DNA from: Acaryochloris marina MBIC11017
GTDB lineage: Bacteria > Cyanobacteriota > Cyanobacteriia > Thermosynechococcales > Thermosynechococcaceae
NCBI RefSeq assembly: GCF_000018105.1
Contig: NC_009926.1
Coordinates: 342,162-374,161, forward strand
Direction of reading: 5' to 3'
DNA length: 32,000 bases
Positions 4,758 to 31,030 of this stretch are shown in pieces. The translations under genes were made by a program, and so were the position numbers. The notes below the pieces were generated by a model. The model was not told the origin of the DNA, made no database searches, and worked only from the letters and a program-made list of their open reading frames with translations. Position 1 is the first letter of the stretch. Every line of letters starts with the position of its first letter.

Positions 4758-4794
4758 ATCAATCAAATTTGAGGAAATCTTGGGGAACGTACGG
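4758..4794 (+). repeat. G-run box, copy 2 (ATCAATCAAATTTGAGGAAATCTTGGGGAACGTACGG)
   Basis: Aligned by eye to 3772-3805 and 4913-4945. It ends the second ~130-nt unit, which starts with GAAACCCCTCAAAG (compare GAAAACCCCCTCAAAG at 3674). Confidence 0.6.
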
Positions 4795-4809
4795 CTCATC
4801 CTTAGCAGC

Positions 4810-4846
4810 AGAATCCCTCTAAAGACTCGCACTCTAGAGGGATTCT
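4810..4846. repeat. perfect 12-bp inverted repeat (stem-loop)
   Basis: AGAATCCCTCTA (4810-4821) / TAGAGGGATTCT (4835-4846) with a 13-nt loop. No flanking T-run on either strand. Confidence 0.6.
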
Positions 4847-4912
4847 AGTCTCAGCCTCTCTCCTAGAACCGTCAGGCTCCTGGGATATTGGCTGATCTTT
4901 TATTTTTAATCT

Positions 4913-4945
4913 ATCAATCAACTTTGGGGAAATTTGGGGGAAGGG
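4913..4945 (+). repeat. G-run box, copy 3 (ATCAATCAACTTTGGGGAAATTTGGGGGAAGGG)
   Basis: Third copy, 36 nt upstream of ATG 4981. It lacks the 5' part of the longer unit. Confidence 0.6.
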
Positions 4946-4980
4946 AAGACACTAGCCTTAATGCTTGCCATAATCCAGAC

Positions 4981-5187
4981 ATGAAACCCACCCAAGCCTT
5001 CTACAACGGAACTCCCATCGCCCCACCCTCAATCCATCTGACGACAGAACAGAAGATGGATCTGCTGGACTGGCATCCGATTTTCACGGGACGGTGCCCG
5101 AACTGTGAGAGGCCGATCAGGGAAACAACGCCACCGAGGAGTCACTGGGACTGTGCGGAGTGTGGATGGAGGGAGGATTTGGCGTGA
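4981..5187 (+). CDS. small Zn-ribbon protein (CPNC...CAEC)
   Basis: 68-aa ORF from ATG 4981 with two CxxC pairs (CPNCERP...CAECGW). The longer 4888 start reads through the G-run box and is not favoured. Confidence 0.5.
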   Translation: MKPTQAFYNGTPIAPPSIHLTTEQKMDLLDWHPIFTGRCPNCERPIRETTPPRSHWDCAECGWREDLA

Positions 5188-5455
5188 TTAGTTTTCATGC
5201 TTCAACTCCTTCTTTAATCTCCCGACCCTGACAGTAAAGGGGACCGCTGATCTCCAAATCTGGGATGTCCTCGGTGCTCAGCAAAGATATTCGCTATTCA
5301 TCCCGTTTAGATCATTCACTTTAGAGTTCTGCCTCTCTCATGAGCTAAAACGTTTAAAGTCTGGACACTCGCTGAGGGTTGCAATTCTGTACGCACGGTC
5401 AAACTTTTTCAAGTTTCTCCGGCAAAGTCGGGGGGTTACCAATCATTAATTAGAT

Positions 5456-5485
5456 TTGCGTATTTACCCGTTGCGTATTTACCCG
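5456..5485 (+). promoter_or_regulatory. perfect tandem 15-bp direct repeat TTGCGTATTTACCCG x2 upstream of the response-regulator gene
   Basis: 5456-5470 and 5471-5485 are identical. Each copy starts with a -35-like TTGCGT. TATGAT lies at 5492-5497 and the gene starts at 5539. Confidence 0.5.
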
Positions 5486-5538
5486 TAAAGATATGATGAC
5501 CCCATTGAGGTGTTTAATTTACGACCCAAACCCTTCTA

Positions 5539-6816
5539 ATGTCTGACTGTCAAACGTTACTTGATTTTGCCGATCAGTTGATTGAATCCAATACAGGCGC
5601 AGCGCTGAGTCAGATACAACGTTTAGTGCTGATGGAGGCATTAACCCTCCGGGCAAAAGCCAAGACCTATGACCAGGTGGCATCTGAGACAGGTTACTCC
5701 AGTGGCTACATTAAAGCAATAGCCGCTGAACTGTGGAAATTGCTGTCAAAAGTCAGTGGCAAAAAGGTCACCAAAGGTAATGTCCAAACGATGTTGCAAC
5801 AGCAGCTAAAGCATGAGCCATCACTACTGCAGGATGGGCGCTTGGTGGTTGAGACAGGGATGATCCCAAACCGACAGCCAATTATCCCTAAAGCAACGGA
5901 CGTGACGGCGGTGGTGACGGCGGCTAAAGCGACTGAAATTAAGGAGACTAACGGTAACAAGACTGACGTTAATCAAGCCGAAGTTAAGGAGAAGGCGACG
6001 GTTATACCATCCGTTATTCTGGTGGTGGATGACCAGCCTAATATCATGAACCTACTCACCAGCATTATGGAACAGGATGAGTATGAGGTCTGGCAGGCCA
6101 GCAGTGGGGCGGAGGGGTTGCAAATGGCCGCGAAGGTGCTGCCGGATTTGATTTTGCTGGATGTCAACATGCCTGATATGGATGGTTATACCGTCTGCCA
6201 GCAGCTCAAGGCAGACCCACAGACTACCGCCATTCCCATTATTTTTGTCAGCGCCCTGGATGAAAGCTGGGATAAGGTGAAAGGGTTTTCCGTCGGTGGC
6301 AGTGACTACATTACCAAACCCTTTAACACCCTAGAGGTGATTGTTCGCATTGAGGATCAACTGAAAATTCGCCAGATCCAAGACCAAATGCTGAAGGCGG
6401 ATCAAGCGCCAACTGATTCTCCTCAATCGAAGCCATCTTCCGCCAAAGCCGTCATTCTAATGGTGGATGATGAACCCAAGAACTTAGCCCTGCTGACGGA
6501 TGTATTAGAGCAGGAAGGGTATGAAATCTGGCAGGCGGATAGTGGTGCGGAGGCGTTAAGGGTGGCCGGCATGGTGCTACCGGATCTGATTCTGCTGGAT
6601 ATCAATATGCCCGATATGCAAGGCTACGATGTGTGTCAACAACTGAAAGCAAACGCTAAAACCAAACTAATTCCGGTGATTTTTGTCAGCGCCCTGGATG
6701 AAACCTGGGATAAGGTGAAGGCATTTTCTGTGGGAGGCAGTGATTACATTAATAAGCCGATTCAGATCGTTGAATTAATGGCTCGGATGAAGCATCAACT
6801 GCAAATTTGGCACTAA
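5539..6816 (+). CDS. response regulator with an N-terminal HTH-like domain and two tandem receiver domains
   Basis: Two receiver modules: VILVVDDQP...DLILLDVNMPDMDGY...SDYITKP and VILMVDDEP...DLILLDINMPDMQGY...SDYINKP. The N-terminal ~90 aa (LSQIQRLVLMEALTLRAKAKTYDQVASETGYSSGYIKAIAAELWKLLS) resembles an HTH module often seen at N-termini of cyanobacterial signalling proteins. Confidence 0.9.
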   Translation: MSDCQTLLDFADQLIESNTGAALSQIQRLVLMEALTLRAKAKTYDQVASETGYSSGYIKAIAAELWKLLSKVSGKKVTKGNVQTMLQQQLKHEPSLLQDGRLVVETGMIPNRQPIIPKATDVTAVVTAAKATEIKETNGNKTDVNQAEVKEKATVIPSVILVVDDQPNIMNLLTSIMEQDEYEVWQASSGAEGLQMAAKVLPDLILLDVNMPDMDGYTVCQQLKADPQTTAIPIIFVSALDESWDKVKGFSVGGSDYITKPFNTLEVIVRIEDQLKIRQIQDQMLKADQAPTDSPQSKPSSAKAVILMVDDEPKNLALLTDVLEQEGYEIWQADSGAEALRVAGMVLPDLILLDINMPDMQGYDVCQQLKANAKTKLIPVIFVSALDETWDKVKAFSVGGSDYINKPIQIVELMARMKHQLQIWH

Positions 6817-9678: not shown

Positions 9679-9728
9679 CTTACTTTTTCTAACTCCATCA
9701 CTGAAGTAATGGAGTTAGAAAAAGTAAG
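9679..9728. repeat. perfect 20-bp inverted repeat immediately after the kinase stop (possible bidirectional terminator)
   Basis: CTTACTTTTTCTAACTCCAT (9679-9698) / ATGGAGTTAGAAAAAGTAAG (9709-9728) with a 10-nt loop. AT-rich stem, no clean T-run. Confidence 0.6.
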
Positions 9729-14550: not shown

Positions 14551-15909
14551 TAGCTAGGAGAGTGTTTAGATTTTTGTGTAAGCAGCAGTGTATTCAATAG
14601 TTGAATCGTGTTGGGAACAGAATAGCAAAATGGGACAGCGCCGCTTTCCAATTCAGAATTGGTCTGGTCCATCGCTTCGAAATATTCCTCATCGCTAGAA
14701 ACATCAATTTGTAGACAGACTCTTCATTAGGGAAAACCGCTTTGGTCTTAATCACCTTTCTCAGTGAGCGGTTGAGCGACTCAATGGCATTGGTGGTGTA
14801 GATAACCTTACGGATGGCCATTGGGTATTGAAACAACGGGGCAACATTATCCCAATGTCGTATCCAGATTTGGCTAATGCCAGGATACGTCTCGTCCCAT
14901 TTATGGGCAAATGCATCCAACGCAGCCTCAGACTCTTCCAAAGTGGCCGCTTGGTAAATGGGCTTGAGGTCTGCAGCTACGGCTCGACTTTCCTTCCACG
15001 GCACATGGCGAAGGCTATTACGAATAAGATGGACAATACAAACCTGCACCTGGGTCTGAGGGTAGACCGACTCAATCGCTTGAGGAAAACCTTTGAGTCC
15101 ATCACAGCAAGCAATCAAGATATCCTGAGTTCCTCGATTTTTAAGGTCTGTGAGCACCGAAAGCCAGAATTTTGCTCCCTCTCGTTCAGCGGCTCCTATC
15201 CATAATCCCAACAGTTCCTTGTTGCCCTCCACAGTCACTGCCAAAGCGACATAGACAGCTCGCTTGCTGACTTGACCATTGACTTTGATGTTCACATACA
15301 GCGCATCAAGATAGACAATCGGATACACCTCATCCAGCGGCCTTGAACGCCAGTCTTTGACCTCTTCCATGACGCTATTGGTGACGTCACTAATCAGAGC
15401 TTCAGAGATATTGGCCCCATACAGCTCCACCAATTGGGCTCGAATATCACGGGTGGTCATGCCCCGAGCATATAAGGCGATGATTTTCTCATCGAGCCCT
15501 GCGATGCGTCGCTGGCCTTTAGGCACCAGGACAGGCTCAAACTCGCCGCAACGGTCACGAGGAATCGATAGGTCCATCTCTCCTTGTTCAGACTGGACGG
15601 TCTTTTTCGAGTAACCATTGCGACTATTTCTGGGGCCATTAGAATTCTCATCACCTGACTGATCGTTGGAGGATTGCTGCAGGTGATGAGTCAATTCACC
15701 TGCAAGGGCTCGTTCCACTAGGCGTTTGCTGAGTCGTTTAAGCAGTCCTGATTCGCCCAGAATATCTTCCGGTTGAGGGTTCTCTCCGATGAGTTCATCT
15801 AACAGTTCATCGACTCGATTGGGAGCTTTTTTCTTTCTAGACATCGTACGGTCTCCTGATGTGTTTGGATCCTAGACCGCTTACACAAAACTCTGAACAG
15901 TCCCTAGCT
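14551..15909 (-). mobile_element. IS256-family insertion sequence (~1.35 kb)
   Basis: Single transposase ORF bounded by imperfect terminal inverted repeats: GAGAGTGTTTAGATTTTTGTGTAAGC (14558-14583) versus the reverse complement of 15878-15903, GGGACTGTTCAGAGTTTTGTGTAAGC. Both ends are flanked by TAGCTAG (14551-14557 and 15904-15910). Confidence 0.85.
14594..15844 (-). CDS. IS256/Mutator-family transposase
   Basis: 416-aa ORF with the family pattern ...VYPIVYLDALYVNIKVNG...VYVALAVTVEGNKELLGLWIG..EGAKFWLSVLTDLKNRG..DILIACCDGLKGFPQAI..VYP.TQVQVCIVHLIRNSL... Confidence 0.9.
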   Translation of the reverse strand: MSRKKKAPNRVDELLDELIGENPQPEDILGESGLLKRLSKRLVERALAGELTHHLQQSSNDQSGDENSNGPRNSRNGYSKKTVQSEQGEMDLSIPRDRCGEFEPVLVPKGQRRIAGLDEKIIALYARGMTTRDIRAQLVELYGANISEALISDVTNSVMEEVKDWRSRPLDEVYPIVYLDALYVNIKVNGQVSKRAVYVALAVTVEGNKELLGLWIGAAEREGAKFWLSVLTDLKNRGTQDILIACCDGLKGFPQAIESVYPQTQVQVCIVHLIRNSLRHVPWKESRAVAADLKPIYQAATLEESEAALDAFAHKWDETYPGISQIWIRHWDNVAPLFQYPMAIRKVIYTTNAIESLNRSLRKVIKTKAVFPNEESVYKLMFLAMRNISKRWTRPILNWKAALSHFAILFPTRFNY

Positions 15910-16634: not shown

Positions 16635-16648
16635 AATAATATGCCACC
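16635..16648 (-). promoter_or_regulatory. backbone box copy (AATAATATGCCACC on +)
   Basis: Matches the 14-nt box repeated 13 times. It lies just downstream of the 16674 stop and 250 nt upstream of ATG 16384. Confidence 0.45.
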
Positions 16649-16673: not shown

Positions 16674-17189
16674 TTACAGATCCCCCCGAATCTCTTCAAT
16701 GACACCATCCCGCAGTACCATCTCGACCTGCATCTTGCGAATAAAGTGGTCGCCTTGCTTGACGTAAAAGTAGCTATCTACCTGGCCTTGTTCAACTTCC
16801 TCGCCCAGCTCCAATGTTCCGACCTTCTCCAGTTGCTGCAAGACTTGAGCTTTTTGCTGGAGCAGTTCGTTTTTGCGTTTTTCAGCTTGCACCTGGATGC
16901 CTTGGATCTGGTTCTGGGTTTCGGCAATAGTGCGGCCCTCTCCCCCAGTACTCTGAATGGTGTGCTGGCTCAGTTCACTCACCATCTGCTGGACTTGGGT
17001 ATCGAGCTGAGCTAATTGCTCATCCAACTGATCAACTTGGGACTGGAGAAGTTGCTGTGCCTCGTCTTTCCATATAGGAGTGACGATGGCCTTGATGGTG
17101 ATCGGACGATTGAGTAAGAGCTGATTAGATGATGGAGACTCAACCCAAAGTTCTGGTTTGGGCTGGGTGGGACGGTCTTGAATAAGCAT
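16674..17189 (-). CDS. coiled-coil protein, tentatively YlqD-like
   Basis: AAGGAG RBS. Central Q/E-rich heptad region and a C-terminal beta-like tail (YFYVKQGDHFIRKMQVEMVLRDGVIEEIRGDL) that resembles the YlqD family as I remember it. Confidence 0.55.
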   Translation of the reverse strand: MLIQDRPTQPKPELWVESPSSNQLLLNRPITIKAIVTPIWKDEAQQLLQSQVDQLDEQLAQLDTQVQQMVSELSQHTIQSTGGEGRTIAETQNQIQGIQVQAEKRKNELLQQKAQVLQQLEKVGTLELGEEVEQGQVDSYFYVKQGDHFIRKMQVEMVLRDGVIEEIRGDL

Positions 17190-17210: not shown

Positions 17211-17417
17211 GGTTTTGAAGGTGACGGATAATATGCCACCGTTAATTTGCTAGTTGGCGGTGACGGATAATGTGCCACCAGCTTTATTCGCTCCAGTCGG
17301 AGGTGCCAGGTAATGTGCCACCGCTCTGATTTGCTTAGTTGGAAGTGACCGATAATCTGCCACCTTCCGAATTTGGCTGTGCGGTGACGGGTAATATGCC
17401 ACTCTTGTTATTTGCCG
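17211..17417 (-). repeat. array of five 39-43-bp direct repeats (iterons), each containing the backbone box
   Basis: The units start at about 17211, 17251, 17293, 17336 and 17379. The shared core is GGTGAC(G/C)G(A/G)TAAT(A/G/C)TGCCAC(C/T) followed by ..(A/T)TTTG(C/G)C. The box copies start at 17227, 17266, 17309, 17351 and 17390. Confidence 0.85.
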
Positions 17418-17655
17418 ATGATGGGGCGATGGTCCCCCGCAGCCACCAGCCACCAGCCCCAGCGATGAGGGCGACTAGCACGACGAGCCAACCCCAATAG
17501 CTGAAATCGCCAAGCACGGCCATGCGGTAGTCATGTTCTCTTTGTTGTTTGGCTGCTTTGCGGATGGCTTCTTGGTCTGCGAGGATCATGGCCCGTTCAC
17601 GGATGGCGATGGCCTCTTTCGACTGCATCGCCCACACCTGAAATTGGGTGTTCAT
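17335..17655 (-). CDS. small membrane protein (one TM), C-terminal tail reads into the iteron array
   Basis: ATG 17655 follows the upstream stop by 23 nt. The alternative GTG at 17709 overlaps the upstream gene. TM segment FSYWGWLVVLVALIAGAGGWW. The last ~27 codons overlap repeat units, so the true 3' extent is uncertain. Confidence 0.4.
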   Translation of the reverse strand: MNTQFQVWAMQSKEAIAIRERAMILADQEAIRKAAKQQREHDYRMAVLGDFSYWGWLVVLVALIAGAGGWWLRGTIAPSSANNKSGILPVTAQPNSEGGRLSVTSN

Positions 17656-17678
17656 CAGCTCCAACAAGATTTGACGTT

Positions 17679-18314
17679 CTAAACTTCCCGGACCTCGGCC
17701 TCCAAACACTTTCCCGGCACCGTCTCGCCTTCAAGAGCTTCTTGGGCTTCCTCTTTCGCCCATTCTTCGGCAAACATCTTCTTCAAGTCACGACTCAGCT
17801 GCTGCATATGGTACTTATGCGCGGCTTGCACCACCCGCTCTGAAGTCTTCCGGGCATTCTTGACGACTCGGCGGCAGGTTCGCAGTGAGTCAGCTTTTAA
17901 AGCTAACTTCATATCCTCGTCAACCTCCTCCACATCATCAATGGTTACTTCCTCCTCGGGTTCTTCGGTGCCCTGTAATTCAGCTTTGACCGCATCAACG
18001 GGGTCCATGCTTTCCTCAGAAACCCGCTCACAGACCAATGTGAACAGCGGGTGGTACAGGTCATTGCCCGTCTCAATCCCCTCAGCAGTAATGGCCTTGT
18101 GGATAGGCTTAAGGTCAACTTGATGGGTGTCAGCGGTGTAGATGCACCAGGCATGGGTGTAGTTATCAGCCGATTTCTCCTCTCTCAGCTTCACGACACC
18201 TTGCAGAGTTTCCAGGTCATAGCCGTCTTCACTCATTCCGCAGGCTCTCAGTAGATGACCGACTTGCTTGTCATCCATGCCGAGGGTTTGCATTAGATCA
18301 TTCATAATAGTCAT
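17679..18314 (-). CDS. hypothetical acidic protein (211 aa)
   Basis: ATG 18314 (MTIMNDLMQ...) has GGAGA about 10 nt upstream. The 72-codon extension to 18527 in the ORF track reads through three box copies and has junk-like composition. Confidence 0.55.
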   Translation of the reverse strand: MTIMNDLMQTLGMDDKQVGHLLRACGMSEDGYDLETLQGVVKLREEKSADNYTHAWCIYTADTHQVDLKPIHKAITAEGIETGNDLYHPLFTLVCERVSEESMDPVDAVKAELQGTEEPEEEVTIDDVEEVDEDMKLALKADSLRTCRRVVKNARKTSERVVQAAHKYHMQQLSRDLKKMFAEEWAKEEAQEALEGETVPGKCLEAEVREV

Positions 18315-18342
18315 TCGTTTATTTCTCCAAATGTTGAACTGT

Positions 18343-18480
18343 GGGAATGTACCACCGGGGGTTTTGAGAGTGGTGGAGTGAGGGGACATGGAAATATGCC
18401 CCCTCTTCCTGCTGAGGTCAGTCGTCCATAACGAACTCCTCGAATCTCGTCTGTGAATCATCCCAAGGGAATATGCCACC
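18343..18480 (-). promoter_or_regulatory. three backbone-box copies upstream of the 211-aa gene
   Basis: GGGAATGTACCACC (18343-18356), GGAAATATGCCCCC (18390-18403) and GGGAATATGCCACC (18467-18480). They lie between the stop at 18520 and ATG 18314. Confidence 0.5.
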
Positions 18481-18519
18481 AGCATTTTTTCGGTACTGGC
18501 ATGAGCCTTCCTAATCGAA

Positions 18520-18957
18520 TTAGTCATCCTCCTTCAACCCTGCATAGATACTTATTGCAGGGCTATCAGAATCTACCGCCGGGGGTTCCTCTTCTTCTCT
18601 TGGAGGTTCATAAGGCTCAGGGGGCGGCTGTACAGTCTCAGGTTCTACGACCATTGGGGCGGCTGTGGATGGAGCTGGTGAGGGTGGCGTCAATTCAGGA
18701 GAATCCCCATCAGCAGTAACCATAATCAATGCCAGTTCGTAAAACGTCTCAACCTGATCTCTTGAAATCAGGATGGCCTTGCGAACCTCAGCTACGGAAT
18801 TGGTTCGAAGGGCAACAACCACTGGCTTAAAGACGGCATAGAGAATCGTCACGCACTTAGTCGCAAACGTTCCGTAGAAGTGTTGCTTGGATGCTTGCAA
18901 GATTTCCTTATACTCTGCATTAGGGTATACAGCATCTACTTTTAATCGCTCAGGCAT
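18520..18957 (-). CDS. candidate ParR-like partition adaptor (145 aa)
   Basis: The start overlaps the ParM-like stop (TAATG) and has an AAGGAGG RBS. It has a short structured N-terminal half and a Pro/Glu-rich disordered tail (PPSPAPSTAAPMVVEPETVQPPPEPYEPPREEEEPP). The assignment rests on position and architecture only. Confidence 0.4.
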   Translation of the reverse strand: MPERLKVDAVYPNAEYKEILQASKQHFYGTFATKCVTILYAVFKPVVVALRTNSVAEVRKAILISRDQVETFYELALIMVTADGDSPELTPPSPAPSTAAPMVVEPETVQPPPEPYEPPREEEEPPAVDSDSPAISIYAGLKEDD

Positions 18958-20051
18958 TACACAACCTCCTTAACTGGAGCAGGTTGCAGTTGCATCACAG
19001 GGGCTGCATGTTGTCGCCAAATCAGATATAGATCGATAAATCTCTGCTGCTGAGACAACGACAATCGAAGTTGAGCAAATGTTGTCTTGATTTCCCTGCG
19101 AACCGGAGCGAGGATATCAGCCTTGACCTGGCATAAATCAGCCAAATAGTCTCCCCAGAAAAAGGAGCCTCCCCCGCCGACATACACACGCTTAGAATTC
19201 ATGAAGTCGGTATCCGCTGCCAAGTCATCACTCAGGTCAGTCCAAACTAAATCTTTGGCTTCTTTGAGTGCAGCTAGCTTAATCGGCTTCTCCTCTTCAG
19301 TGAGCATTGCCGATAATCCCCCTTCGCCCCAGGCCATCGCCTCCTCATACAGCAGCTTCGCCCCCGTCAATTCATTGCTGAAGGCAAACGGGAAGTTCCG
19401 CAAAATCTCAATGGTGCCGTACCCCGTCCAGGTATAAGCATTCGGCACCACATTCGCCTGCTCATCCTTGAGGTTGATAATCGTCACATCTCTGTGACCA
19501 AACATCAGGATTGAACAGGGGTACACGTTGGCGTAGCTGGCAAATCCTGCACCCTCTGGATGGACCTGGACCCGAACGGGATTACATGAAACTGTGTCAA
19601 TCCCATACTGGAAACTGCGGATATGCTTGAAAATCAGCTCCTCAGTTTCTCGGAAGTAGGGGGCTTCATTTGAAGGCAGCATCAGATCAATCTCAACATC
19701 CAGGGGGCTATCGATTTCGCTGATGTACTGACCCACAATCGACAGCACCTTAGCCACGGCATGGTGCTTTTTGATCCGATTCACCTTGGTCCGACGTACA
19801 GCCCCCTCGGCATACTCACCCACAATCCAATGGGCACCATCAAATGACAGGTGTGACCCTTGCCGATTGTTCACTAAGTTCAAAGATTCGTAATAGCTTG
19901 CCGTGACTTTGCGGATGGCACTCGATTGCAAAATCAAGTCCTCAACACCCACCTTGCCAGGGTGAGTGGTTTGGACAAGAACTTTGTTACCGGATGCCCC
20001 AGTATCGATTCCAAATTTGGCGATAGCGTTCATGGATTTTCGCTTCTCCAT
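18957..20051 (-). CDS. actin-like plasmid segregation ATPase (ParM/Alp family)
   Basis: Actin-fold motifs: phosphate-1 FGIDTGASGNKV, connect VHPEGAG, adenosine VYVGGGGSFFW. The phosphate-2 region is atypical (ILMFGHRDVTI). Start at ATG 20051, or at ATG 20033 with GGAG 12 nt upstream. The 20138 start in the ORF track reads through the iterons. Confidence 0.7.
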   Translation of the reverse strand: MEKRKSMNAIAKFGIDTGASGNKVLVQTTHPGKVGVEDLILQSSAIRKVTASYYESLNLVNNRQGSHLSFDGAHWIVGEYAEGAVRRTKVNRIKKHHAVAKVLSIVGQYISEIDSPLDVEIDLMLPSNEAPYFRETEELIFKHIRSFQYGIDTVSCNPVRVQVHPEGAGFASYANVYPCSILMFGHRDVTIINLKDEQANVVPNAYTWTGYGTIEILRNFPFAFSNELTGAKLLYEEAMAWGEGGLSAMLTEEEKPIKLAALKEAKDLVWTDLSDDLAADTDFMNSKRVYVGGGGSFFWGDYLADLCQVKADILAPVRREIKTTFAQLRLSLSQQQRFIDLYLIWRQHAAPVMQLQPAPVKEVV

Positions 20052-20060
20052 AATCAACGA

Positions 20061-20074
20061 AATAATGTACCGCC
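20061..20074 (-). promoter_or_regulatory. backbone box copy (AATAATGTACCGCC on +) directly upstream of the ParM-like gene
   Basis: 9 nt from ATG 20051 and 27 nt from ATG 20033. Read in the gene direction it is GGCGGTACATTATT, which contains the -10-like TACATT. Confidence 0.5.
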
Positions 20075-20095
20075 ACCCCAAATCACGATTCACAC

Positions 20096-20171
20096 AAATC
20101 CCCCTAAATCCCCACAAATCCCCTTGCAACTCCCCCAAATCCCCCTCGAAATAGGTGAGACTTGGGGGAAT
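20096..20171 (-). repeat. phased AAATCCCC(C) iterons, candidate parC-like centromere/operator
   Basis: Direct copies start at 20096, 20106, 20116 and 20137 (spacing 10, 10 and 21 bp). An inverted copy GGGGGAAT lies at 20164-20171. All are upstream of the ParM-like gene. Confidence 0.55.
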
Positions 20172-20328
20172 CCAGAGAATGACCTGAGAACTTGCAGGAA
20201 AGCTTGGAGTGGTGCTACTTTGAGGGCAGATTCAAGAGGTTTTGGAGGGGTCGCTGAGGCTCCCACACCCATCACCACTCCGAGGCACCGGAACGGAAAT
20301 TTACCCAATCGGACTGACCCTAAATTTT

Positions 20329-20427
20329 CGTAGTACATTCAGAAACATTTTTGTACTATCACGTAGTACTTCCGTAGTTGTTTTGTAACTTCACTTTGTA
20401 GTACACCGTCATATCTTTGTAGTTTTC
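20329..20427. other. candidate oriT region: AT-rich block with repeated (T)TTGTAGTAC / CGTAGTAC motifs
   Basis: CGTAGTACA 20329-20337, TTGTACTA 20351-20358 (inverted), CGTAGTACT 20362-20370, CGTAGTTG 20373-20380, TTGTAGTACA 20396-20405 and TTTGTAGTTTTC 20416-20427. The block lies in the divergent intergenic region immediately upstream of the relaxase gene. Confidence 0.35.
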
Positions 20428-20543
20428 ATGAGAACGATCACTTCTGTGGTCGATGGAATCGCTTTTTAAAAATTTCACAGCAGGTATTCCCATGCTTAAA
20501 ACTTTCCTGAAACATCTGAACGACTAAGCCAGGGGCCGATGTC

Positions 20544-23500: not shown

Positions 23501-26249
23501 AGTTGACGATGAGCGACAAGGTATTGGAGGCCGCAGAGGAGATCATGCAGATCAAGGACAAGCTCCCCCGACACGCACCACCCAAGACGGTCGCTCAACA
23601 GAATGGGGGGCAACCTCCTCAGACATAGCTAATTGGGTGATGCATTGGTCTGAGGAGAATGAGCTTGCAGCAAGCGGGTTGGAGGATCACTTGCTAGCCC
23701 TTGATAAGGATATAGAGTCACTCACTCAAAGTCTAGAACCATATTCCTTTGAAGGTTTGGAAGAACTGGCTGAGATTGTTGAAAATGCAGATAAACAACA
23801 AGATCTCAGCCAGAACCTCACTTATATTGCCCAAACTATAGATAACTTTAACCAGATAATCACCCAAAGTCTTGATTCTAGACCTTTTATAGGCTTGGAA
23901 GAATTGGCTGAGATTGTTGAAAATGCAGATAAACAACAAGAACTCAGCCAAAACCTTAGTTATATTTCCCGATCTATAGATAACTTTGACTACACTATCG
24001 AGCAATTCCTAAGCCAGCAACGAATCAAGACCATTGCTGATGCCGTAGCAGAATGGCGAACGGGTCAGGAGCTGGCAAATGCCGTCACTGAAATGGTGGA
24101 TGTCCTGACTCAGGGCACTGAAGGGCTAGACCGGGCAATCATCCGACTCCAAGCGGGGATTGAGACCACCCAATCTCTGGATGTCCAATTCCCCGCAATG
24201 GTTGAGTTAGTCGATGCCGTTCAAGATTGGCAAACTGAGGTGGAAGTTTCTGCGGTCATAGGCGAGGTGCAGGAGCTGGTTGAGTCAATCACGGTGCCTC
24301 AATTCCCTGGAATGAATGACCTGGCTCAGGATGTCCATGACCTCAATGAAGAACAAGCCTTAGCTGAGAGTGGCTTGGTTGAGCAGTTAGCTGAGTTGAC
24401 CACTCAGATCAATACCTTAGTTGAACCCCAGCAAGCTCAGTTTGAGGGCATGGCACAGCTAGCTGAGGTGGTTACTGAACTCCAGCAAGGTCAATCCCTC
24501 GCTCAGGTGCAGCCCCAGCTCCAGGCCATCACCCAGCAGATTGAAGCGTTTAACGCCAAGCAACCCACTTATTCTTTTGCCAAGATTAAGGAGCTGGCCG
24601 ATACCGTCAGTGAGTGGAGGGCACATGAATCCATCACTCAACACATTGGCGCACTCAATGATCTGACCGTTCGCGCTCAACGGAGTCTGAAGACCTTCCC
24701 AGCTATGCTGCAATTGGCTAAATCCGTGAAGGCAATGCGCTCTGTGGATGCACTCATGAATGGGCCAGTCGCAGACCAGATCAAGGAAGTCGCCCAACAG
24801 TTAACGGACAAGGGGATGAGTATCACTCCTAAGCCAAAGACCATTGACGATCAGGTGTTCTGGAAGCCGGACTATACCGGGGTAGAACGACCTGACCACA
24901 TTGACGAGAAGCATTGGAATGAATGGGTGGCAAGCTGCGCCCATCCTGATGTGATTGCTGCTCGGCTCCAATCCATTGCTGATGATCAGGTGATTGATCG
25001 GTTGCTCGGAGCCAAGATTGAAGACATCGCCACTCGCAGACGGGATGGGTCGTTCAAGACGGTTCGCAGCCAGTATCACATTGAGCCGATCCGAGCCTTG
25101 ATTAATGATCGGTCGCATCCTGAAGTGTTGAGCTATCAAGAGCTAGCTGAAGGGGGAGGCTGGTGGGCTGATGCTGGAGTGGATCCGCTGTCCTTTGAAG
25201 AACTTGGACCCAATGAGGAACCTACACTGAGTCTGTATGGCACCTTCAAGCCTGATACTCCCCGCATCGACGTAGACAAAACTCGCAGAGCTAGGGCTAA
25301 AGACTCCAATGCCCCAACCAAATATCGCAAGTATGAGAATCCATTGGGAACCAAGCGCGAACTCTTTGAGCGAGACATGGCCTTCCAACCCGTCCCAAAT
25401 CATATCGCTGAGCGGATCTTTGATAAGTATGGTGTTGTGCAAACGGATGAGGAACGGACCAAGGGATTCTGGTACACGGTCTACAAGCATCCTGAGATTC
25501 CCATCTACCGGACTGAAGGAGACAAGAAAGATGCGGCATTAGTCTCTCAAGGAAGAGTCGTCATTGGTGGTCAGGGGGTCAACATCGGCTATCGGGCCAA
25601 GAACCAGCACGATGAAAAGCTCGAAAGACGAGTACTGCATCCTCATCTAGACGTGTTTGCGGTTCCAGGCAGAGAGTTCAGGTATGCCCATGACTGGGAT
25701 TCTGAGCAGTCCACGGTCTGGAACGTGCGCCGTGAAATGGTCAGAGAAGCTGAACTCATTGAAGAAAGAGACTGCAAGACATGGAGAATTCCTTGGGATT
25801 CTGAACAAGGGAAAGGCGTCGATGACCTGATCGCTAATCATGGCCCCATCGCCTTTGAGCGGGCTGACAAGAATGCCTATCCGATGGAGCGGGAAATCAC
25901 GATGCACTATCGGGGCCAGTACACCCAGATTAAGAAGCGATTGAATCGGCACTTTGGATGCGCGGTGCACGATATTCCCATTTACCTAGAAGCGATGAAG
26001 GATGGGGACGAGATGGATGGCATTCGGGTCCTATGGGAGTCTTCCACTGCCCGGTCCTTCCAGCATTACCATGACAAGCAGCACTATATCGAGGGCATCA
26101 TCAAGCTCTCGGATGCCTATCGTAGACTCGTCAGAAAAGACGGTGACCCCAAGGCCATGCAAATCCTCGTCAACAGACTAAAAAGGCCCCGACCCATTAT
26201 CAAGGTCGAGGCCAGAAGTCGGAATATAAAACGAGGCTATGGACGTTAG
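20544..26249 (+). CDS. MOBF-type relaxase / RecD-like helicase fused through a repeat-rich linker to a C-terminal TOPRIM (primase-like, DUF3854-like) domain
   Basis: Relaxase: Tyr pairs IDYY...ERYY and His triad HHTSRDGDMQLHTHMLIMN. Helicase: P-loop GFPGVGKS (21876-21899), Walker B LIDEAGMM (22071-22094) and VGDAGQ. TOPRIM: TEGDKKDAA (from 25512), HDWDSE (25689-25706) and KGVDDL. A single frame is open for 1901 codons. Confidence 0.85.
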   Translation: MKTMRTIYGEMIDYYDEDESLVDAPERYYSESEVITDIDRMSTAVWVGSNAIVQKLGTYVKREDFKALSRGFLPEALKSVAGGAVQRIRGKKPNEEDKERHAHDVVLSAPKSVSMALHLEGDNRIFDAHMEAVLETFELLEREYAQTRIQVNGVRSVVDTGNMIAALMPHHTSRDGDMQLHTHMLIMNGTQGPDGRWRSLSHEKLAQAKWIGSFYRQKLAEKVQRLGYRIYQTKDAFELVGYDRSDVEVFSKRHRAIVKAVRDEGLEVTPENKKLKVLPTRKAKRGVGKKLEIIQDHWREEARSQGVGHPVLAEPLAVLPDPGRARYEVESAIRHYAEWSSIFEKDDIYAYVFKTLKRQGMAMEQVDEAIKQSKELIPVDRGFTTVTAVEEEAQIHQRWMAGQGQAQPMVAHPSLAGISVKLNEDQAKTILNTLTSTDHYQIWQGFPGVGKSRTLGVLKTLLNGSGFTIRGFSPTIPAAKKLQDELGITTNTVEHLVLHQVDDSPNQVWLIDEAGMMSRRQMKVILEKAEAVKAQVIFVGDAGQNSSIEAGNPFKFMQANGATTHRIEEIIRQKVDVQKQAVELIARGRGIAALELLDANGYVIESGCKAEMAQAAADQYLALPLKEQEETLIIAGTNEERLDTEQAIRRGEKQAGRLGESSKIVQLKSRNLSIEQKRRVDWYRKGDYVRLLQTSHTASIKRGELYKVEKREGDELVVSSFGGRLYRFKPAKYKLKEVYSAHKFDVAVGDKLRWTTTIKENNWINGQQLTVTALDGLNMKVRDHEGRSHDVPLTQPLALEYDRVWTSYRSQSGSKKRTIVITTNDRTSSREPFLVDISRQEHELTVYTESLNKLRNRVAKSNAQKSALDLIEGTYGNQRTTTADHQRASSPVSPTHGRDHHLDQSSRRGPSPEPTHPRREQRTQVPSQGADQHHSNGSQSRSQPVHPGIQGGDGIQETLGYERVDQGTRQGNGQLKVENRGYQRLAVDDERQGIGGRRGDHADQGQAPPTRTTQDGRSTEWGATSSDIANWVMHWSEENELAASGLEDHLLALDKDIESLTQSLEPYSFEGLEELAEIVENADKQQDLSQNLTYIAQTIDNFNQIITQSLDSRPFIGLEELAEIVENADKQQELSQNLSYISRSIDNFDYTIEQFLSQQRIKTIADAVAEWRTGQELANAVTEMVDVLTQGTEGLDRAIIRLQAGIETTQSLDVQFPAMVELVDAVQDWQTEVEVSAVIGEVQELVESITVPQFPGMNDLAQDVHDLNEEQALAESGLVEQLAELTTQINTLVEPQQAQFEGMAQLAEVVTELQQGQSLAQVQPQLQAITQQIEAFNAKQPTYSFAKIKELADTVSEWRAHESITQHIGALNDLTVRAQRSLKTFPAMLQLAKSVKAMRSVDALMNGPVADQIKEVAQQLTDKGMSITPKPKTIDDQVFWKPDYTGVERPDHIDEKHWNEWVASCAHPDVIAARLQSIADDQVIDRLLGAKIEDIATRRRDGSFKTVRSQYHIEPIRALINDRSHPEVLSYQELAEGGGWWADAGVDPLSFEELGPNEEPTLSLYGTFKPDTPRIDVDKTRRARAKDSNAPTKYRKYENPLGTKRELFERDMAFQPVPNHIAERIFDKYGVVQTDEERTKGFWYTVYKHPEIPIYRTEGDKKDAALVSQGRVVIGGQGVNIGYRAKNQHDEKLERRVLHPHLDVFAVPGREFRYAHDWDSEQSTVWNVRREMVREAELIEERDCKTWRIPWDSEQGKGVDDLIANHGPIAFERADKNAYPMEREITMHYRGQYTQIKKRLNRHFGCAVHDIPIYLEAMKDGDEMDGIRVLWESSTARSFQHYHDKQHYIEGIIKLSDAYRRLVRKDGDPKAMQILVNRLKRPRPIIKVEARSRNIKRGYGR
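23167..23628 (+). CDS. 153-aa coiled-coil protein encoded in the +1 frame inside the relaxase ORF
   Basis: GAGG at 23157-23160 lies 6 nt before the ATG, and an in-frame TAA lies at 23152-23154. Coding-type codon-position bias is in this frame rather than frame 0. The product is an amphipathic helical sequence. Confidence 0.55.
   Translation: METNEQQQQIINELRVQLAPLTDAITILTNQVEEVQAQNQHILDENRELKSQVRERINTIPMEVKAVLNLFIQEFKEAMASKKPSDMSESIKELAKAMDNLRLKIEDTSVLQLTMSDKVLEAAEEIMQIKDKLPRHAPPKTVAQQNGGQPPQT
23754..24029 (+). repeat. 138-bp (46-codon) tandem duplication inside the relaxase linker
   Basis: 23754-23891 and 23892-24029 are near-identical over the first ~70 nt (gg.ttggaagaa.tggctgagattgttgaaaatgcagataaacaacaaga.ctcagcca.aacct). 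They encode GLEELAEIVENADKQQ.LSQNL.YI...IDNF twice. Further degenerate copies follow. Confidence 0.8.
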
Positions 26250-26467
26250 TCTACACGACGGGAGTTAATCACCGTACCACCACTAGAACTAATCCAATCA
26301 GAACCCGGCATGGGAGGTGGCCCTGGAATAATCTCGGTGAGTCTCATTCCTGATCTATCTTCAATCTCTACGCGACTGCGTTGTTGAGGCTTGGGATCAC
26401 CGGGTAGCCGCTGACTCCAGGGATCATTAAATGAATTGCCGATTGGATCGTTATACATATCTGACAT
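26246..26467 (-). CDS. small Pro/Gly-rich hypothetical protein (73 aa)
   Basis: ATG 26467 (MSDMYNDPIG...) has AAGGAG upstream and a box copy 43 nt upstream. The longer 26611 start overlaps the preceding gene. Confidence 0.45.
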   Translation of the reverse strand: MSDMYNDPIGNSFNDPWSQRLPGDPKPQQRSRVEIEDRSGMRLTEIIPGPPPMPGSDWISSSGGTVINSRRVD

Positions 26468-26510: not shown

Positions 26511-26524
26511 GAGAATATGCCACC
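26511..26524 (-). promoter_or_regulatory. backbone box copy (GAGAATATGCCACC on +)
   Basis: 43 nt upstream of ATG 26467, in the 61-nt gap between the 731-aa gene stop (26529) and ATG 26467. Confidence 0.45.
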
Positions 26525-28764: not shown

Positions 28765-28778
28765 GGTAATGTACCGCT
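28765..28778 (-). promoter_or_regulatory. backbone box copy (GGTAATGTACCGCT on +)
   Basis: 40 nt upstream of ATG 28724. It overlaps the stop of the 118-aa gene. Confidence 0.45.
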
Positions 28779-29133
28779 ACCGTCCAAACCCCCGATTTTG
28801 GCCTCGGTTCCGATTCTGGGTGAGCTTGTGGCCGTGGGTTTCCACCGCGACTTTGAGTTGGGCACTCTTCACATACCGCTCCGCCATCTTGGTTGGGTCT
28901 TGCACTTTCTCGGCATAGTCGCTCATCCGTAGCTTGGTCTTAATCACATCCGTGGGGGTGTTATTCCGTATCTCCTTCTTCGCCAGTTCCATTGCCTGTT
29001 CAGCAGTCTCGATCTTGACCGCCACTCGCGGCTTGCGGAGGGCGACGGCATTGATGATGACGCTGTTGGTGGCATTCACGGCCTGCTGGCCGATTTGCAA
29101 CGCTTCTCTAAATTGCTGTTCTTCGCTACTCAT
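28777..29133 (-). CDS. small hypothetical protein (118 aa) with a basic RG-rich tail
   Basis: The ATG overlaps the coupling-protein stop (ATGA). Helical body and the tail NRNRGQNRGFGR. No family recognised. Confidence 0.6.
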   Translation of the reverse strand: MSSEEQQFREALQIGQQAVNATNSVIINAVALRKPRVAVKIETAEQAMELAKKEIRNNTPTDVIKTKLRMSDYAEKVQDPTKMAERYVKSAQLKVAVETHGHKLTQNRNRGQNRGFGR

Positions 29134-30963: not shown

Positions 30964-30977
30964 AGATAACGTACCGC
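30964..30977 (-). promoter_or_regulatory. backbone box copy (GATAACGTACCGCC on +)
   Basis: 106 nt upstream of the coupling-protein ATG (30857). Confidence 0.45.
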
Positions 30978-31030
30978 CAGTTGAATTTTGAGTGGGCAGA
31001 AGCCACACCTCTATGAAAAGATATGCCAGA

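What the first reader, a model, noticed from the sequence alone, without database searches (positions are those of the whole stretch)
17211..17417. Five tandem 39-43-bp iterons built around the backbone box: candidate origin, centromere or operator array
Seen: the consecutive units are (1) ggttttgaagGTGACGGATAATATGCCACCgttaATTTGC, (2) tagttggcgGTGACGGATAATGTGCCACCagcttTATTCGC, (3) tccagtcggagGTGCCAGGTAATGTGCCACCgctctgATTTGC, (4) ttagttggaaGTGACCGATAATCTGCCACCttccgaATTTGGC and (5) tgtgcgGTGACGGGTAATATGCCACTcttgttATTTGCC. Core-to-core spacing is 39, 43, 42 and 39 bp, roughly four helical turns. The array lies between a small TM-protein ORF and the YlqD-like coiled-coil gene. Nothing else in the window has this density of ordered repeats. 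Established: arrays of directly repeated ~20-bp sites with helical phasing are the hallmark of iteron-type plasmid origins. They also occur in some partition centromeres and autoregulated operators. Inference: this is the best candidate in the window for oriV or for a second centromere-like site. The flanking uncharacterised genes are candidates for the cognate binding protein.
Basis: partly seen in the sequence, partly recalled or inferred. Interest (0 to 1): 0.7.

Follow-up and report, generated by a model that had tools for sequence, protein, structure and literature searches.

The report
Tandem promoter-like boxes before plasmid ylqD
The five 39-43-bp repeats are real, but they are most likely stacked copies of a promoter/operator-like box that this cyanobacterial plasmid family places in front of its transfer and maintenance genes, not its replication origin or centromere.

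Summary
The array exists as described: five head-to-tail units at 17213-17416, with cores 39/43/42/39 bp apart, far beyond chance.

The window is Acaryochloris marina MBIC11017 plasmid pREB1. The array lies on the gene strand immediately upstream of ylqD.

Its core, GGYGGYAYATT(AY) on the gene strand, is not confined to the array. It recurs singly or in small arrays 22-46 nt upstream of the start codons of other transfer and maintenance genes. It is always in gene orientation and reads as an extended -10 promoter element.

Related plasmids carry 5, 4, 3, 1 or 0 units at the same site. Co-resident plasmids of one strain share the same box.

By contrast, 8-11-bp repeats directly upstream of the ParM-like gene differ between plasmids. 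They track the N-terminus of the adjacent ParR-like protein, which makes them the centromere candidate. A relative also carries an annotated CyRepA1-family replication gene about 33 kb from its array.

Best reading (about 0.55): a reiterated promoter/operator module controlling ylqD. oriV and centromere are disfavoured.

Two features remain unexplained: the inverted-repeat character of the units and the recurrent spacing of about 42 bp.

The parts
17213..17417 (-). Array of five 39-43-bp units, read on the gene (minus) strand. Each unit is [GCAAAT]-N4-6-[GGTGGCAYATTAY]-[CCGTCACC]-N7-9.
   Evidence: (D5)
17220..17240 (-). Unit 1 core GGTGGCATATTATCCGTCACC. The hexamer CATATT ends 40 nt upstream of the ylqD ATG, and a GGAG Shine-Dalgarno lies between. 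This is the proposed ylqD promoter proper.
   Evidence: The proximal box starts 51-54 nt from the ATG in all nine box-bearing loci.
17259..17279 (-). Unit 2 core GGTGGCACATTATCCGTCACC
17302..17322 (-). Unit 3 core GGTGGCACATTACCTGGCACC. This unit-specific variant is kept in L074, L071 and L078.
17344..17364 (-). Unit 4 core GGTGGCAGATTATCGGTCACT, with an extended dyad GGAAG...CTTCC. It lies inside the 3' end of the TM-protein ORF.
17383..17403 (-). Unit 5 core AGTGGCATATTACCCGTCACC. It lies inside the 3' end of the TM-protein ORF.
16674..17189 (-). ylqD (171 aa, PF11068), the gene directly downstream of the array.
   Evidence: E 3.8e-40; PDB 4dci, E 1.9e-24
17335..17709 (-). Small TM-protein ORF (start uncertain). 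Its tail is encoded by units 5 and 4.
16636..16648 (-). Single box GGTGGCATATTAT, 25 nt after the ylqD stop. It is the 5' arm of the hairpin GGGAGGGTGGCA-N7-TGCCCCTTCCC. In relatives a second box follows 42-44 bp later, then the next gene.
18344..18480 (-). Second, smaller box array (boxes at 18468-18480, 18393-18403 and 18344-18356) upstream of the 211-aa gene (17679-18314).
   Evidence: L071 and L077 have three units at exactly 45-bp spacing.
20062..20074 (-). Single box GGCGGTACATTAT, 28 nt upstream of the ATG (20033) of the ParM-like gene.
20093..20146 (-). Five 10-bp repeats (GGGGATTT on the gene strand) abutting the parM box. This is the parC-type centromere/operator candidate and is not part of the array.
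18957..20033 (-). ParM-like actin-family gene.
   Evidence: ALP_N 5.9e-05, below Pfam's cut-off; FcmB 7e-07, far below cut-off; PDB 9rmi CorM 1.3e-04
18520..18957 (-). 145-aa ParR-like adaptor candidate. Residues 4-12 co-vary with the 8-11-bp repeat type, and the acidic C-terminal SIYAGxxEDD is conserved.
   Evidence: The fold is not established.
26512..26524 (-). Single box, 44 nt upstream of an unlisted 73-aa ORF (26247-26467).
28766..28778 (-). Single box, 25 nt upstream of the 731-aa gene's ATG (28724).
30966..30978 (-). Single box, 22 nt upstream of a small ORF preceding the T4CP gene (29130-30857).

Best explanation
The array is five tandem copies of a ~41-bp cis-regulatory module whose core is the plasmid family's 'backbone box', GGYGGYAYATT(AY) on the gene strand. 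The box reads as an extended -10 promoter element: T/C-G-G followed by a YAYATT hexamer with A at position 2 and T at position 6, and no -35. Unit 1 would be the ylqD promoter, giving a leader of about 30 nt that carries the GGAG ribosome-binding site. Units 2-5 are reiterations made and removed by unequal recombination between cores. They would act as extra start sites and/or extra binding sites for whatever recognises the box. That could be RNA polymerase with a host or plasmid-encoded group-2-like sigma factor, or a repressor that covers the -10. The array would therefore set, and perhaps buffer, ylqD transcription as part of a regulon that also includes the parM-like, 211-aa, post-ylqD, T4CP and 731-aa genes. 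It is not the replication origin and not the ParMR centromere. Shown: the array itself; the distribution, orientation and distance-to-ATG of the boxes; copy-number variation; sharing between co-resident plasmids; and plasmid-specific repeats at parM. Inferred: promoter/operator activity and the identity of the binding factor.
For: (1) In the window, 13 of 13 matches to GGYGGYAYATTAY (up to 1 mismatch) are on the minus strand, against 0.34 expected. Apart from array units 2-5, one box inside the T4CP coding region (30005-30017) and the distal 18468-18480 box, they lie 22-44 nt upstream of a start codon, mostly with a GGAG-type ribosome-binding site between. (2) In the complete 298-kb relative NZ_CP064925.1, all 7 exact 11-mers are in gene orientation. 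Six lie in the 86-103 kb transfer/maintenance backbone. None lies near the CyRepA1-family rep gene, ParAB or the cargo regions. (3) In all nine box-bearing loci the ylqD-proximal box starts 51-54 nt from the ATG. Loci without GGYGG (L005, L080, L081) still have TATATT at that position. (4) Window units have TGG+CAYATT; the S15 and Moss Beach plasmids have CGG+TATATT. The better hexamer occurs where the TG is lost. (5) Copy number is 5, 5, 5, 4, 4, 4, 3, 3, 3, 1, 1 and then 0 in five loci, with deletions that join cores. This suits a dispensable, dosage-type element. (6) Co-resident plasmids share the box: L074 and L077 in assembly GCA_000238775.3, and L001 and L003 in strain S15. The pREB1 array and that of a locus encoding the pREB3-type YlqD are 84-98% alike while their parMR regions are about 45% alike. 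(7) These plasmids encode several RpoD-like ~270-aa sigma factors.
Against: No transcription start data exist for this region. The consensus -35/-10 scan finds no promoter in the array, although extended -10 promoters need no -35 (established knowledge). Units 39-43 bp apart cannot all hold RNA polymerase at once. In distant comparisons the box is not clearly better conserved than the spacers: window vs L001 is box 0.75, spacer 0.64; vs L002 it is box 0.64, spacer 0.80. Selection on the distal units is therefore not demonstrated. A plain promoter explains neither the co-varying inverted-repeat arms nor the recurrent ~42-bp spacing at three different genes.
Confidence: 0.55

Rival explanations
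1. Strand-specific nucleic-acid hairpins. Each unit folds on the gene strand, with a GGYGGY stem, an AT-rich loop and a complementary 3' arm. It would work as RNA (a leader or intercistronic stem-loop bound by a protein, or protecting the downstream cistron). Alternatively it would work as single-stranded DNA on the transferred strand, for example as priming signals for the TOPRIM/DUF3854 domain fused to the relaxase, in the manner of RSF1010 ssiA/ssiB with MobA-RepB'.
For: For 40 non-identical boxes, each site's own left and right halves fold to a sum of -344 kcal/mol. Permuted halves average -279 (sd 14), and 0 of 5000 permutations do as well. The arms differ between sites but stay complementary: GGTGGC/GTCACC, GGAGGTA/TACCTCC, GGATGGCA/TGCCAT, GGGGGCAT/ATGTCCCC, GGGAGGGTGGCA/TGCCCCTTCCC. 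Mismatches are G.T on the gene strand. The sense strand folds at a mean of -8.6 against -6.8 for the antisense, and is better in 27 of 40. All boxes lie on one strand on both sides of the candidate oriT. The relaxase carries DUF3854, a domain related to primase Toprim (PMC10079941).
Against: Within the ylqD units alone the permutation test is weak (p about 0.09), and it is absent for the five window units. As ssDNA the five units fold at only -0.7 to -5 kcal/mol, with z of +0.6 to -2.8. The whole array as RNA folds no better than shuffles, with z of -1.1 sense and -0.4 antisense. Rfam gives nothing. The boxes of parM, the 731-aa gene and 26512 have no dyad. A hairpin signal does not explain the fixed distance to start codons. 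Related sequences inflate permutation tests.
Confidence: 0.15
2. A protein-binding scaffold in the style of F sopC (43-bp tandem units, each with an inverted-repeat site). This would be a centromere-like or regulator-titrating array bound by a box-specific plasmid protein. It would act in plasmid positioning or global repression rather than as a promoter.
For: The unit length and internal imperfect inverted repeat resemble sopC (own knowledge of F sopC). Mean spacing of 42.0 bp, or four helical turns, recurs at three independent arrays. Dispersed single sites plus one dense cluster is the layout of KorB/OB on RK2, StbA on R388 and omega on pSM19035 (own knowledge). Units within an array are homogenised.
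Against: Co-resident plasmids share the same box, which would cause partition incompatibility (established knowledge). Syntenic plasmids manage with 1 or 0 units. No ParA/ParB or other DNA-binding gene lies next to the array. The ParMR module has its own plasmid-specific repeats. No box-binding protein could be identified: the 211-aa protein has no structural match.
Confidence: 0.12
3. Selectively neutral expansion. Only the ylqD-proximal unit is functional, and units 2-5 are slippage or unequal-crossover copies of the promoter region with no role of their own.
For: Copy number ranges from 0 to 5 among close relatives, with clean unit-sized deletions. The distal units overlap the dispensable-looking tail of the upstream ORF. 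The box is not better conserved than the spacer in distant comparisons.
Against: Unit-specific variants (units 3 and 4) are kept across window, L074, L071 and L078. Arrays arose at three different genes with the same spacing. Every distal unit retains the A2/T6 hexamer and the GG(T)GG.
Confidence: 0.15
4. Iteron-type replication origin. A Rep protein would bind the five units and open adjacent DNA.
For: Five direct repeats with roughly helical phasing. The relaxase carries a DUF3854/Toprim-related domain of the kind found in cyanobacterial CyRepA initiators (PMC10079941).
Against: No rep gene, AT-rich stretch or DnaA-type boxes adjoin the array. It is wedged between a coding tail at about 52% GC and the ylqD ribosome-binding site. 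There is no skew switch at 17.3 kb. The relative NZ_CP064925.1 has an annotated CyRepA1-family rep gene at 65-68.5 kb, 33 kb from its array and without boxes nearby. The array is absent from syntenic plasmids. The same units occur on co-resident plasmids. Units are twice the length of classical iterons.
Confidence: 0.03

Closest known systems
Global-regulon boxes of conjugative plasmid backbones (RK2 KorA/KorB operators; R388 StbA and ArdK direct repeats; pSM19035 omega heptad arrays)
   Same: One short motif is reused at the promoters of many transfer and maintenance operons. It occurs singly at some and in tandem clusters at others, and is confined to the backbone.
   Different: The box is not a palindrome or a short contiguous heptad/9-mer array. 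Units are about 41 bp apart. No binding protein is known. The motif itself looks like a -10 element rather than a site beside one.
Extended -10 (TGn) sigma-70-family promoters
   Same: TGG + CAYATT (or CGG + TATATT), with invariant A2 and T6. No -35. The distance to the start codon fits a leader of 15-35 nt.
   Different: Two further G's upstream (GGYGG) and the downstream CCGTCACC are conserved. The motif is restricted to one plasmid regulon and is multiplied in tandem. None of these is a feature of ordinary promoters. No start-site data exist.
F plasmid sopC (twelve 43-bp tandem repeats, each with a SopB-binding inverted repeat)
   Same: Unit length of 39-43 bp, head-to-tail arrangement, and an imperfect inverted repeat inside each unit.
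   Different: No sopA/sopB-type genes are adjacent. The array is shared by co-resident plasmids, dispensable in relatives, and its box recurs at promoters.
R1/pSK41-type parC with ParM and ParR
   Same: A ParM-like gene and a following small adaptor-like gene lie in the same cluster.
   Different: The parC-like element is a different sequence, the 10-bp repeats at 20093-20146 that abut the parM promoter box. It is plasmid-specific, whereas the 41-bp array lies 2.7 kb downstream and is not plasmid-specific.
Iteron origins (P1, F, RK2, pPS10)
   Same: Several direct repeats in phase.
   Different: Those have 17-22-bp iterons next to their rep gene and an AT-rich DUE, and they act as incompatibility determinants. 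None of this holds here.
Frpo/ssi single-strand promoters and RSF1010 ssiA/ssiB
   Same: Strand-specific hairpin-forming sequences near oriT in front of early genes (PMC11541004). A relaxase-primase-type fusion is present.
   Different: Frpo are long hairpins that rebuild duplex -35 and -10 elements. Here the stems are 5-12 bp with the -10-like sequence in the loop, and the ssDNA stability of the window units is marginal.

Membership tests
Iteron-type plasmid origin (oriV) | Tandem direct repeats, classically 17-22 bp, in helical phase | tested here: inconclusive
   Five direct repeats spaced 39-43 bp. The phasing is approximate and the units are twice the classical length.
Iteron-type plasmid origin (oriV) | Adjacent gene for the iteron-binding initiator | tested here: not met
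   The neighbours are a TM-protein ORF and ylqD. In NZ_CP064925.1 the annotated CyRepA1-family rep gene is 33 kb from the array.
Iteron-type plasmid origin (oriV) | Adjacent AT-rich unwinding element or DnaA boxes; strand-skew switch | tested here: not met
   The sequence on both sides is coding or a ribosome-binding site. GC is 0.52 in the 17-18 kb bin and the skew follows gene orientation only.
Iteron-type plasmid origin (oriV) | Replicon-specific repeats (incompatibility determinant) | tested here: not met
   The same box occurs in arrays on plasmids of one strain: L074 and L077, and L001 and L003.
Iteron-type plasmid origin (oriV) | Supports autonomous replication | not testable with these tools
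   Needs cloning or AR-seq.
Type II (ParMRC) centromere parC | Repeats at or overlapping the parM-parR promoter | tested here: not met
   The array lies 2.7 kb downstream of parM, behind three other genes. The 10-bp repeats at 20093-20146 do meet this feature.
Type II (ParMRC) centromere parC | Repeat sequence co-varies with the adaptor's DNA-reading region and differs between compatible plasmids | tested here: not met
   The array box is constant while the ParR-like N-terminus varies. The 8-11-bp repeats at parM do co-vary with it.
Type Ia centromere of the sopC kind | Tandem ~43-bp units, each with an inverted-repeat ParB/SopB site, next to parA-parB | tested here: not met
   The unit architecture is similar, but no ParA/ParB genes are in the window. 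In the relative, ParA/ParB lie about 50 kb from the array.
Sigma-70-family extended -10 promoter | -10 hexamer with A at position 2 and T at position 6, preceded by TG at -15/-14 | tested here: met
   All five units read (G/A)GTGG + CA(T/C/G)ATT. Relatives read CGG + TATATT.
Sigma-70-family extended -10 promoter | Position and orientation appropriate to a downstream gene | tested here: met
   Unit 1's hexamer ends 40 nt before the ylqD ATG. Single boxes lie 22-46 nt before other start codons, all in gene orientation.
Sigma-70-family extended -10 promoter | Transcription starts 5-9 nt downstream | not testable with these tools
   No start-site map for pREB1 was found in the literature held.
Frpo-type single-strand promoter | Long hairpin on the transferred strand that rebuilds duplex -35 and -10 elements | tested here: not met
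   Stems are 5-12 bp, the -10-like sequence lies in the loop, and there is no -35. The definition is taken from PMC11541004.
Known RNA families (Rfam 15) | Match to a covariance model | tested here: not met
   Only two chance-level hits (E 0.23 and 0.85) outside the array.

The most novel reading that the evidence does not exclude
The backbone box with its co-varying 3' arm is a dedicated, strand-specific establishment signal of Acaryochloris MobF plasmids. It would be a hairpin-embedded -10 element or priming site, read on the transferred strand or by a plasmid-encoded sigma factor or by the relaxase-fused TOPRIM domain. Tandem arrays spaced about 42 bp apart would amplify the signal in front of selected early genes such as ylqD.
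Probability: 0.15. Interest if true: 0.7.

Novelty: new variant of a known kind. Interest (0 to 1): 0.4.

Why it matters
Almost nothing is known about how the large plasmids of cyanobacteria control their transfer and maintenance genes. Acaryochloris keeps up to nine such plasmids in one cell.

This work defines one shared cis-element for that backbone regulon. It separates that element from the plasmid-specific ParMR centromere repeats that probably let the plasmids coexist. It also gives a directly testable set of sites for start-site mapping, reporter series and pull-down.

If the boxes prove to be promoters, they are compact parts for cyanobacterial engineering. If the hairpin reading is right, they would be a new kind of establishment signal.

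Tried and rejected
- **Rfam** scan of 15.8-20.6 kb at permissive threshold: two chance-level hits only, neither in the array.
- **GC/AT skew:** it follows gene orientation, with no switch at 17.3 kb.
- **Consensus -35/-10 and terminator scan:** nothing in the array.
- **Whole-array folding** as RNA on either strand: no better than shuffles.
- **PLSDB search with the array:** only the three syntenic Acaryochloris plasmids match; the rest are chance.
- **Metagenome scan** for GACGGATAATRTRCCRCC: 64 single chance hits and no arrays.
- **Genome-collection scan** with YlqD peptides: one locus only.
- **ParR-like protein:** no Pfam hit or PDB profile hit. The AlphaFold model has low confidence (pLDDT 64) and shows two long helices, so the ribbon-helix-helix fold I expected is not shown.
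- **211-aa protein:** the N-domain model is confident, but no Foldseek match in the PDB reaches E 0.001, so there is no lead to a DNA-binding role.
- **Literature:** no paper links Acaryochloris plasmids with iterons or gives start sites for pREB1.
- **Ideas considered and dropped:**
  - Sigma-54 promoter: spacing and GG/GC do not fit, and cyanobacteria lack RpoN (own knowledge).
  - NtcA or LexA boxes: no GTA-N8-TAC or comparable palindrome.
  - CRISPR: the period is wrong and there are no unique spacers.
  - Intrinsic terminators: no U-tract.
  - A coding peptide repeat: the frame is kept only between units 5 and 4.
Full report
**Observation**

The array is present exactly as described. Tandem Repeats Finder gives 17215-17402, period 39-43, 4.6 copies. 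The repeat finder gives five copies starting at 17213, 17252, 17295, 17337 and 17376. The 21-bp cores sit at 17220, 17259, 17302, 17344 and 17383, so the spacings are 39, 43, 42 and 39 bp. Shuffled sequence gives none.

Two details need correcting.
- The small membrane-protein ORF (17335-17709, minus strand) reads through units 5 and 4 and stops inside the array.
- The window holds other ordered non-coding repeats. Five 10-bp repeats lie at 20093-20146, and a smaller array of the same box lies at 18344-18480.

**Replicon and context**

The YlqD protein encoded next to the array is 100% identical to one on a 374,161-bp contig named Acaryochloris marina. From my own knowledge that is the size of pREB1 of strain MBIC11017.

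All genes around the array are on the minus strand. In order they are:
- a ParM-like actin-family gene, 18957-20033 (ALP_N 5.9e-05; PDB CorM 1.3e-04);
- a 145-aa gene;
- a 211-aa gene whose true start is 18314;
- the TM-protein ORF;
- the array;
- ylqD, 16674-17189 (PF11068, 3.8e-40);
- an IS256/Mutator transposase.

Divergent from the ParM-like gene is a 1901-aa MobF relaxase with a C-terminal DUF3854 domain. Further on lie a 731-aa gene and a type IV coupling protein.

**The box is a dispersed, oriented, gene-proximal motif**

Read on the gene strand, the core begins GGYGGYAYATTAY. With up to one mismatch this 13-mer occurs 13 times in the window, all on the minus strand, against 0.34 expected.

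Besides the five array units, it lies:
- 28 nt upstream of the ParM-like ATG;
- 29 nt upstream of the 211-aa gene, with two more copies 47 and 124 bp further up;
- 25 nt upstream of the 731-aa gene;
- 22 nt upstream of a small ORF preceding the coupling-protein gene;
- 44 nt upstream of an unlisted 73-aa ORF (26247-26467);
- 25 nt after the ylqD stop, where relatives have the next gene.

One further copy (30005-30017) lies inside the coupling-protein coding region.

In the complete 298-kb relative NZ_CP064925.1, all seven exact 11-mers are in gene orientation. Six lie within the 86-103 kb transfer/maintenance backbone. None lies in the cargo, near the CyRepA1-family rep gene, or near ParA/ParB.

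**Comparison of syntenic loci**

Sixteen loci with a plasmid-type ylqD were read. The number of units upstream of ylqD is shown below.

| Units | Loci |
|---|---|
| 5 | window, L074, L071 |
| 4 | L078, L001, L083 (L083 degenerate) |
| 3 | L077, L002, L003 |
| 1 | L079; L004 (separated from ylqD by an insertion with inverted ends) |
| 0 | L005, L080, L081, L006, L082 |

The alignment shows unit-sized deletions that join cores. Unit-specific variants (units 3 and 4) are kept among window, L074, L071 and L078.

The proximal box always starts 51-54 nt from the ATG. The three loci that lack GGYGG (L005, L080, L081) still have TATATT at that position.

The high identity of the array between the window and L074 reflects a near-identical block that extends to mobF. 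It is not local constraint. In distant comparisons the box is not clearly better conserved than the spacers.

**Where the centromere and origin more probably are**

*Centromere.* Immediately upstream of the ParM-like gene's box, every plasmid has its own short repeat:
- GGGGATTT x5 in window and L074, with variants in L079 and L083;
- GGGAACT x7 in L001;
- GGTGGTAA x2-3 in L077 and L082;
- AACGACCGAC in L002;
- CGACCCC in L003;
- TGTGAYTGGG, 3+3 copies, in L081;
- TGCGRRTT x5 in L005.

The repeat type tracks residues 4-12 of the 145-aa protein:
- RLKVDAVY with GGGGATTT;
- IFRIDTRW with GGTGGTAA;
- RFRMDTVW with GGGAACT;
- YFQVNTHW, RFIINTGW and RFIVNTEW with the remaining three.

That protein's acidic C-terminus is conserved. 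This is the layout of ParMRC systems, whose occurrence on cyanobacterial plasmids is described in bioRxiv 10.1101/2025.06.27.661541.

*Co-residence.* The 41-bp array box, by contrast, is the same on plasmids that live together.
- L074 and L077 come from one assembly.
- L001 and L003 come from strain S15.
- The pREB1 array and the array of a locus encoding the pREB3-type YlqD are 84-98% alike, while their parMR regions are about 45% alike.

Iterons and centromeres are incompatibility determinants (established knowledge). Sharing therefore argues against both roles.

*Origin.* A relative carries an annotated CyRepA1-family replication gene 33 kb from its array. For that family the rep-gene region suffices for replication (PMC10079941). 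Next to the array there is no rep gene, no AT-rich element and no skew switch.

**What the box looks like**

The window units read (G/A)GTGG followed by CATATT, CACATT or CAGATT. That is TG at -15/-14 plus a hexamer with the invariant A2 and T6 of a -10 element. The S15 and Moss Beach plasmids read CGG plus TATATT.

There is no -35, as is usual for extended -10 promoters (established knowledge). A start about 7 nt downstream would fall in the conserved CCGTCACC. That gives ylqD a leader of about 30 nt carrying its GGAG.

The plasmids encode several ~270-aa RpoD-like sigma factors. This is only a lead to what might read the box.

**The inverted-repeat feature**

In the arrays, and at boxes that lie behind another gene, the box is the 5' half of an imperfect inverted repeat. 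The 3' half follows the local variant of the 5' half. Mismatches are G.T on the gene strand.

- Over 40 non-identical sites, no permutation of halves out of 5000 folds as well as the native pairs. Sense folds better than antisense in 27 of 40.
- The signal is weak within the ylqD units alone (p about 0.09).
- The five window units are marginal as ssDNA (-0.7 to -5 kcal/mol).
- The whole array folds no better than shuffles.
- The parM, 731-aa and 26512 boxes have no dyad.

I regard the dyad as real but unexplained.

The spacing is also unexplained. Arrays at three different genes, with unrelated inter-box sequence, all keep 38-47 bp (mean 42.0, sd 2.4, n = 32).

**Mechanism and rivals**

| Reading | Estimate | Main points |
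|---|---|---|
| Reiterated promoter/operator module for ylqD, part of a backbone regulon defined by the box | 0.55 | Fits the distribution, orientation and distance to start codons; lacks start-site data |
| Strand-specific RNA or ssDNA hairpin signals | 0.15 | Supported by the co-varying arms and the relaxase-TOPRIM fusion; weakened by low stability and by boxes without a dyad |
| Neutral expansion of the promoter region | 0.15 | Fits the variable copy number; weakened by retained unit variants and recurrent spacing |
| sopC-like protein scaffold, or a sink for the regulator | 0.12 | Spacing and layout fit; sharing between co-resident plasmids and dispensability do not |
| Iteron origin | 0.03 | Disfavoured by every feature that could be tested |

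**Comparison with known systems**

In layout the closest analogues are the global-regulon operators of conjugative plasmids (RK2 KorA/KorB, R388 StbA, pSM19035 omega). In sequence logic the closest are extended -10 promoters. In unit architecture it resembles F sopC.

It fails the testable defining features of iteron origins and of ParMRC or sopC-type centromeres. It meets the sequence and position criteria of an extended -10 promoter. It does not match Frpo as defined in PMC11541004.

**Verdict**

This is a genuine, conserved, copy-number-variable regulatory repeat that had not been described in the literature I could search. It is a new variant of a known kind.

Interest is moderate. It defines a plasmid regulon motif and separates it from the real centromere. 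Its mechanism rests on inference, and two features (the dyad and the spacing) hint at something more than a promoter.

Noticed in passing
window 20093-20146 (and L001 8600-8690, L002 6295-6335, L077, L081, L005 upstream of their parM-like genes): Plasmid-specific 8-11-bp tandem repeats abut the promoter box of the ParM-like gene. The repeat type co-varies with residues 4-12 of the 145-aa protein encoded after parM. This is a ParMRC-type centromere and adaptor set that differs between co-resident plasmids.
   Followed up: yes
window ~20150-20540: The non-coding block between the ParM-like gene and mobF stays 86-100% identical across relatives even where parMR is about 45% identical. It contains the inverted repeat TAGTACA-N14-TGTACTA and several GTAGT(A/T) motifs. 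It is a candidate oriT.
   Followed up: partly
window 18344-18480; L071 1599-1700; L077 3328-3430: A second array of the same box lies upstream of the 211-aa gene. It has 2-3 units in the window and three units at exactly 45 bp in L071 and L077. Its units form strong inverted repeats (GGGGGCAT...ATGTCCCC).
   Followed up: partly
window 17679-18527: The 282-aa ORF is over-extended. The conserved gene starts at ATG 18314 (211 aa), preceded by a box and a GGAG. Its N-terminal domain is confidently modelled as all-helical but has no match in the PDB.
   Followed up: yes
window 26247-26467 (minus): An unlisted 73-aa ORF with a Shine-Dalgarno sequence lies 44 nt downstream of box 26512-26524. It is hidden inside a longer TTG-started ORF and overlaps the end of the relaxase gene region.
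   Followed up: partly
window 14560-15902: An IS256/Mutator-family transposase (14594-15844) is flanked by 24-nt inverted repeats (14560-14583 and 15879-15902). The genes that follow ylqD in related plasmids are missing here, so the IS marks a rearrangement point.
   Followed up: partly
L004 (pMB05) 4573-6076: A two-gene insertion (DUF6431 protein plus a hypothetical protein) bounded by the inverted repeats cagatagatcagaaaatggtgtct sits exactly between the single box and ylqD.
   Followed up: partly
window 17500-16700 versus L071; window 21000-17200 versus L074: The similarity is mosaic. The pREB3-type locus shares the TM-gene 3' end, array and ylqD at 84-98% but parMR at about 45%. The CCMEE 5410 locus L074 is 92-100% identical up to the array and then drops inside ylqD. 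This indicates recombination between plasmid backbones.
   Followed up: partly
NZ_CP064925.1 (L084-L089): This relative carries a CyRepA1-family rep gene (64988-68563) and ParA/ParB (151.3-153.0 kb). It also has a second mobF with a 'ParM/StbA family' gene (180-191 kb) and an ArdC-like gene. Orphan methyltransferases lie downstream of the ylqD cluster. There are six sigma-70-family genes, several of them next to HU and AbrB genes.
   Followed up: partly
window 23703-23978: A 138-bp tandem duplication (78% identity) lies inside the relaxase gene.
   Followed up: no
window 9679-9728: A near-perfect 24-nt inverted repeat with a 2-nt gap lies just after the hybrid histidine-kinase gene. It is probably a terminator-type hairpin.
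   Followed up: no
window 17335-17420 (minus frame of the TM-protein ORF): Units 5 and 4 are 39 bp apart and in frame. The ORF therefore ends in a repeated peptide, NNKSGILPVTAQP / NSEGGRLSVTSN. This is probably an incidental read-through of the array.
   Followed up: no
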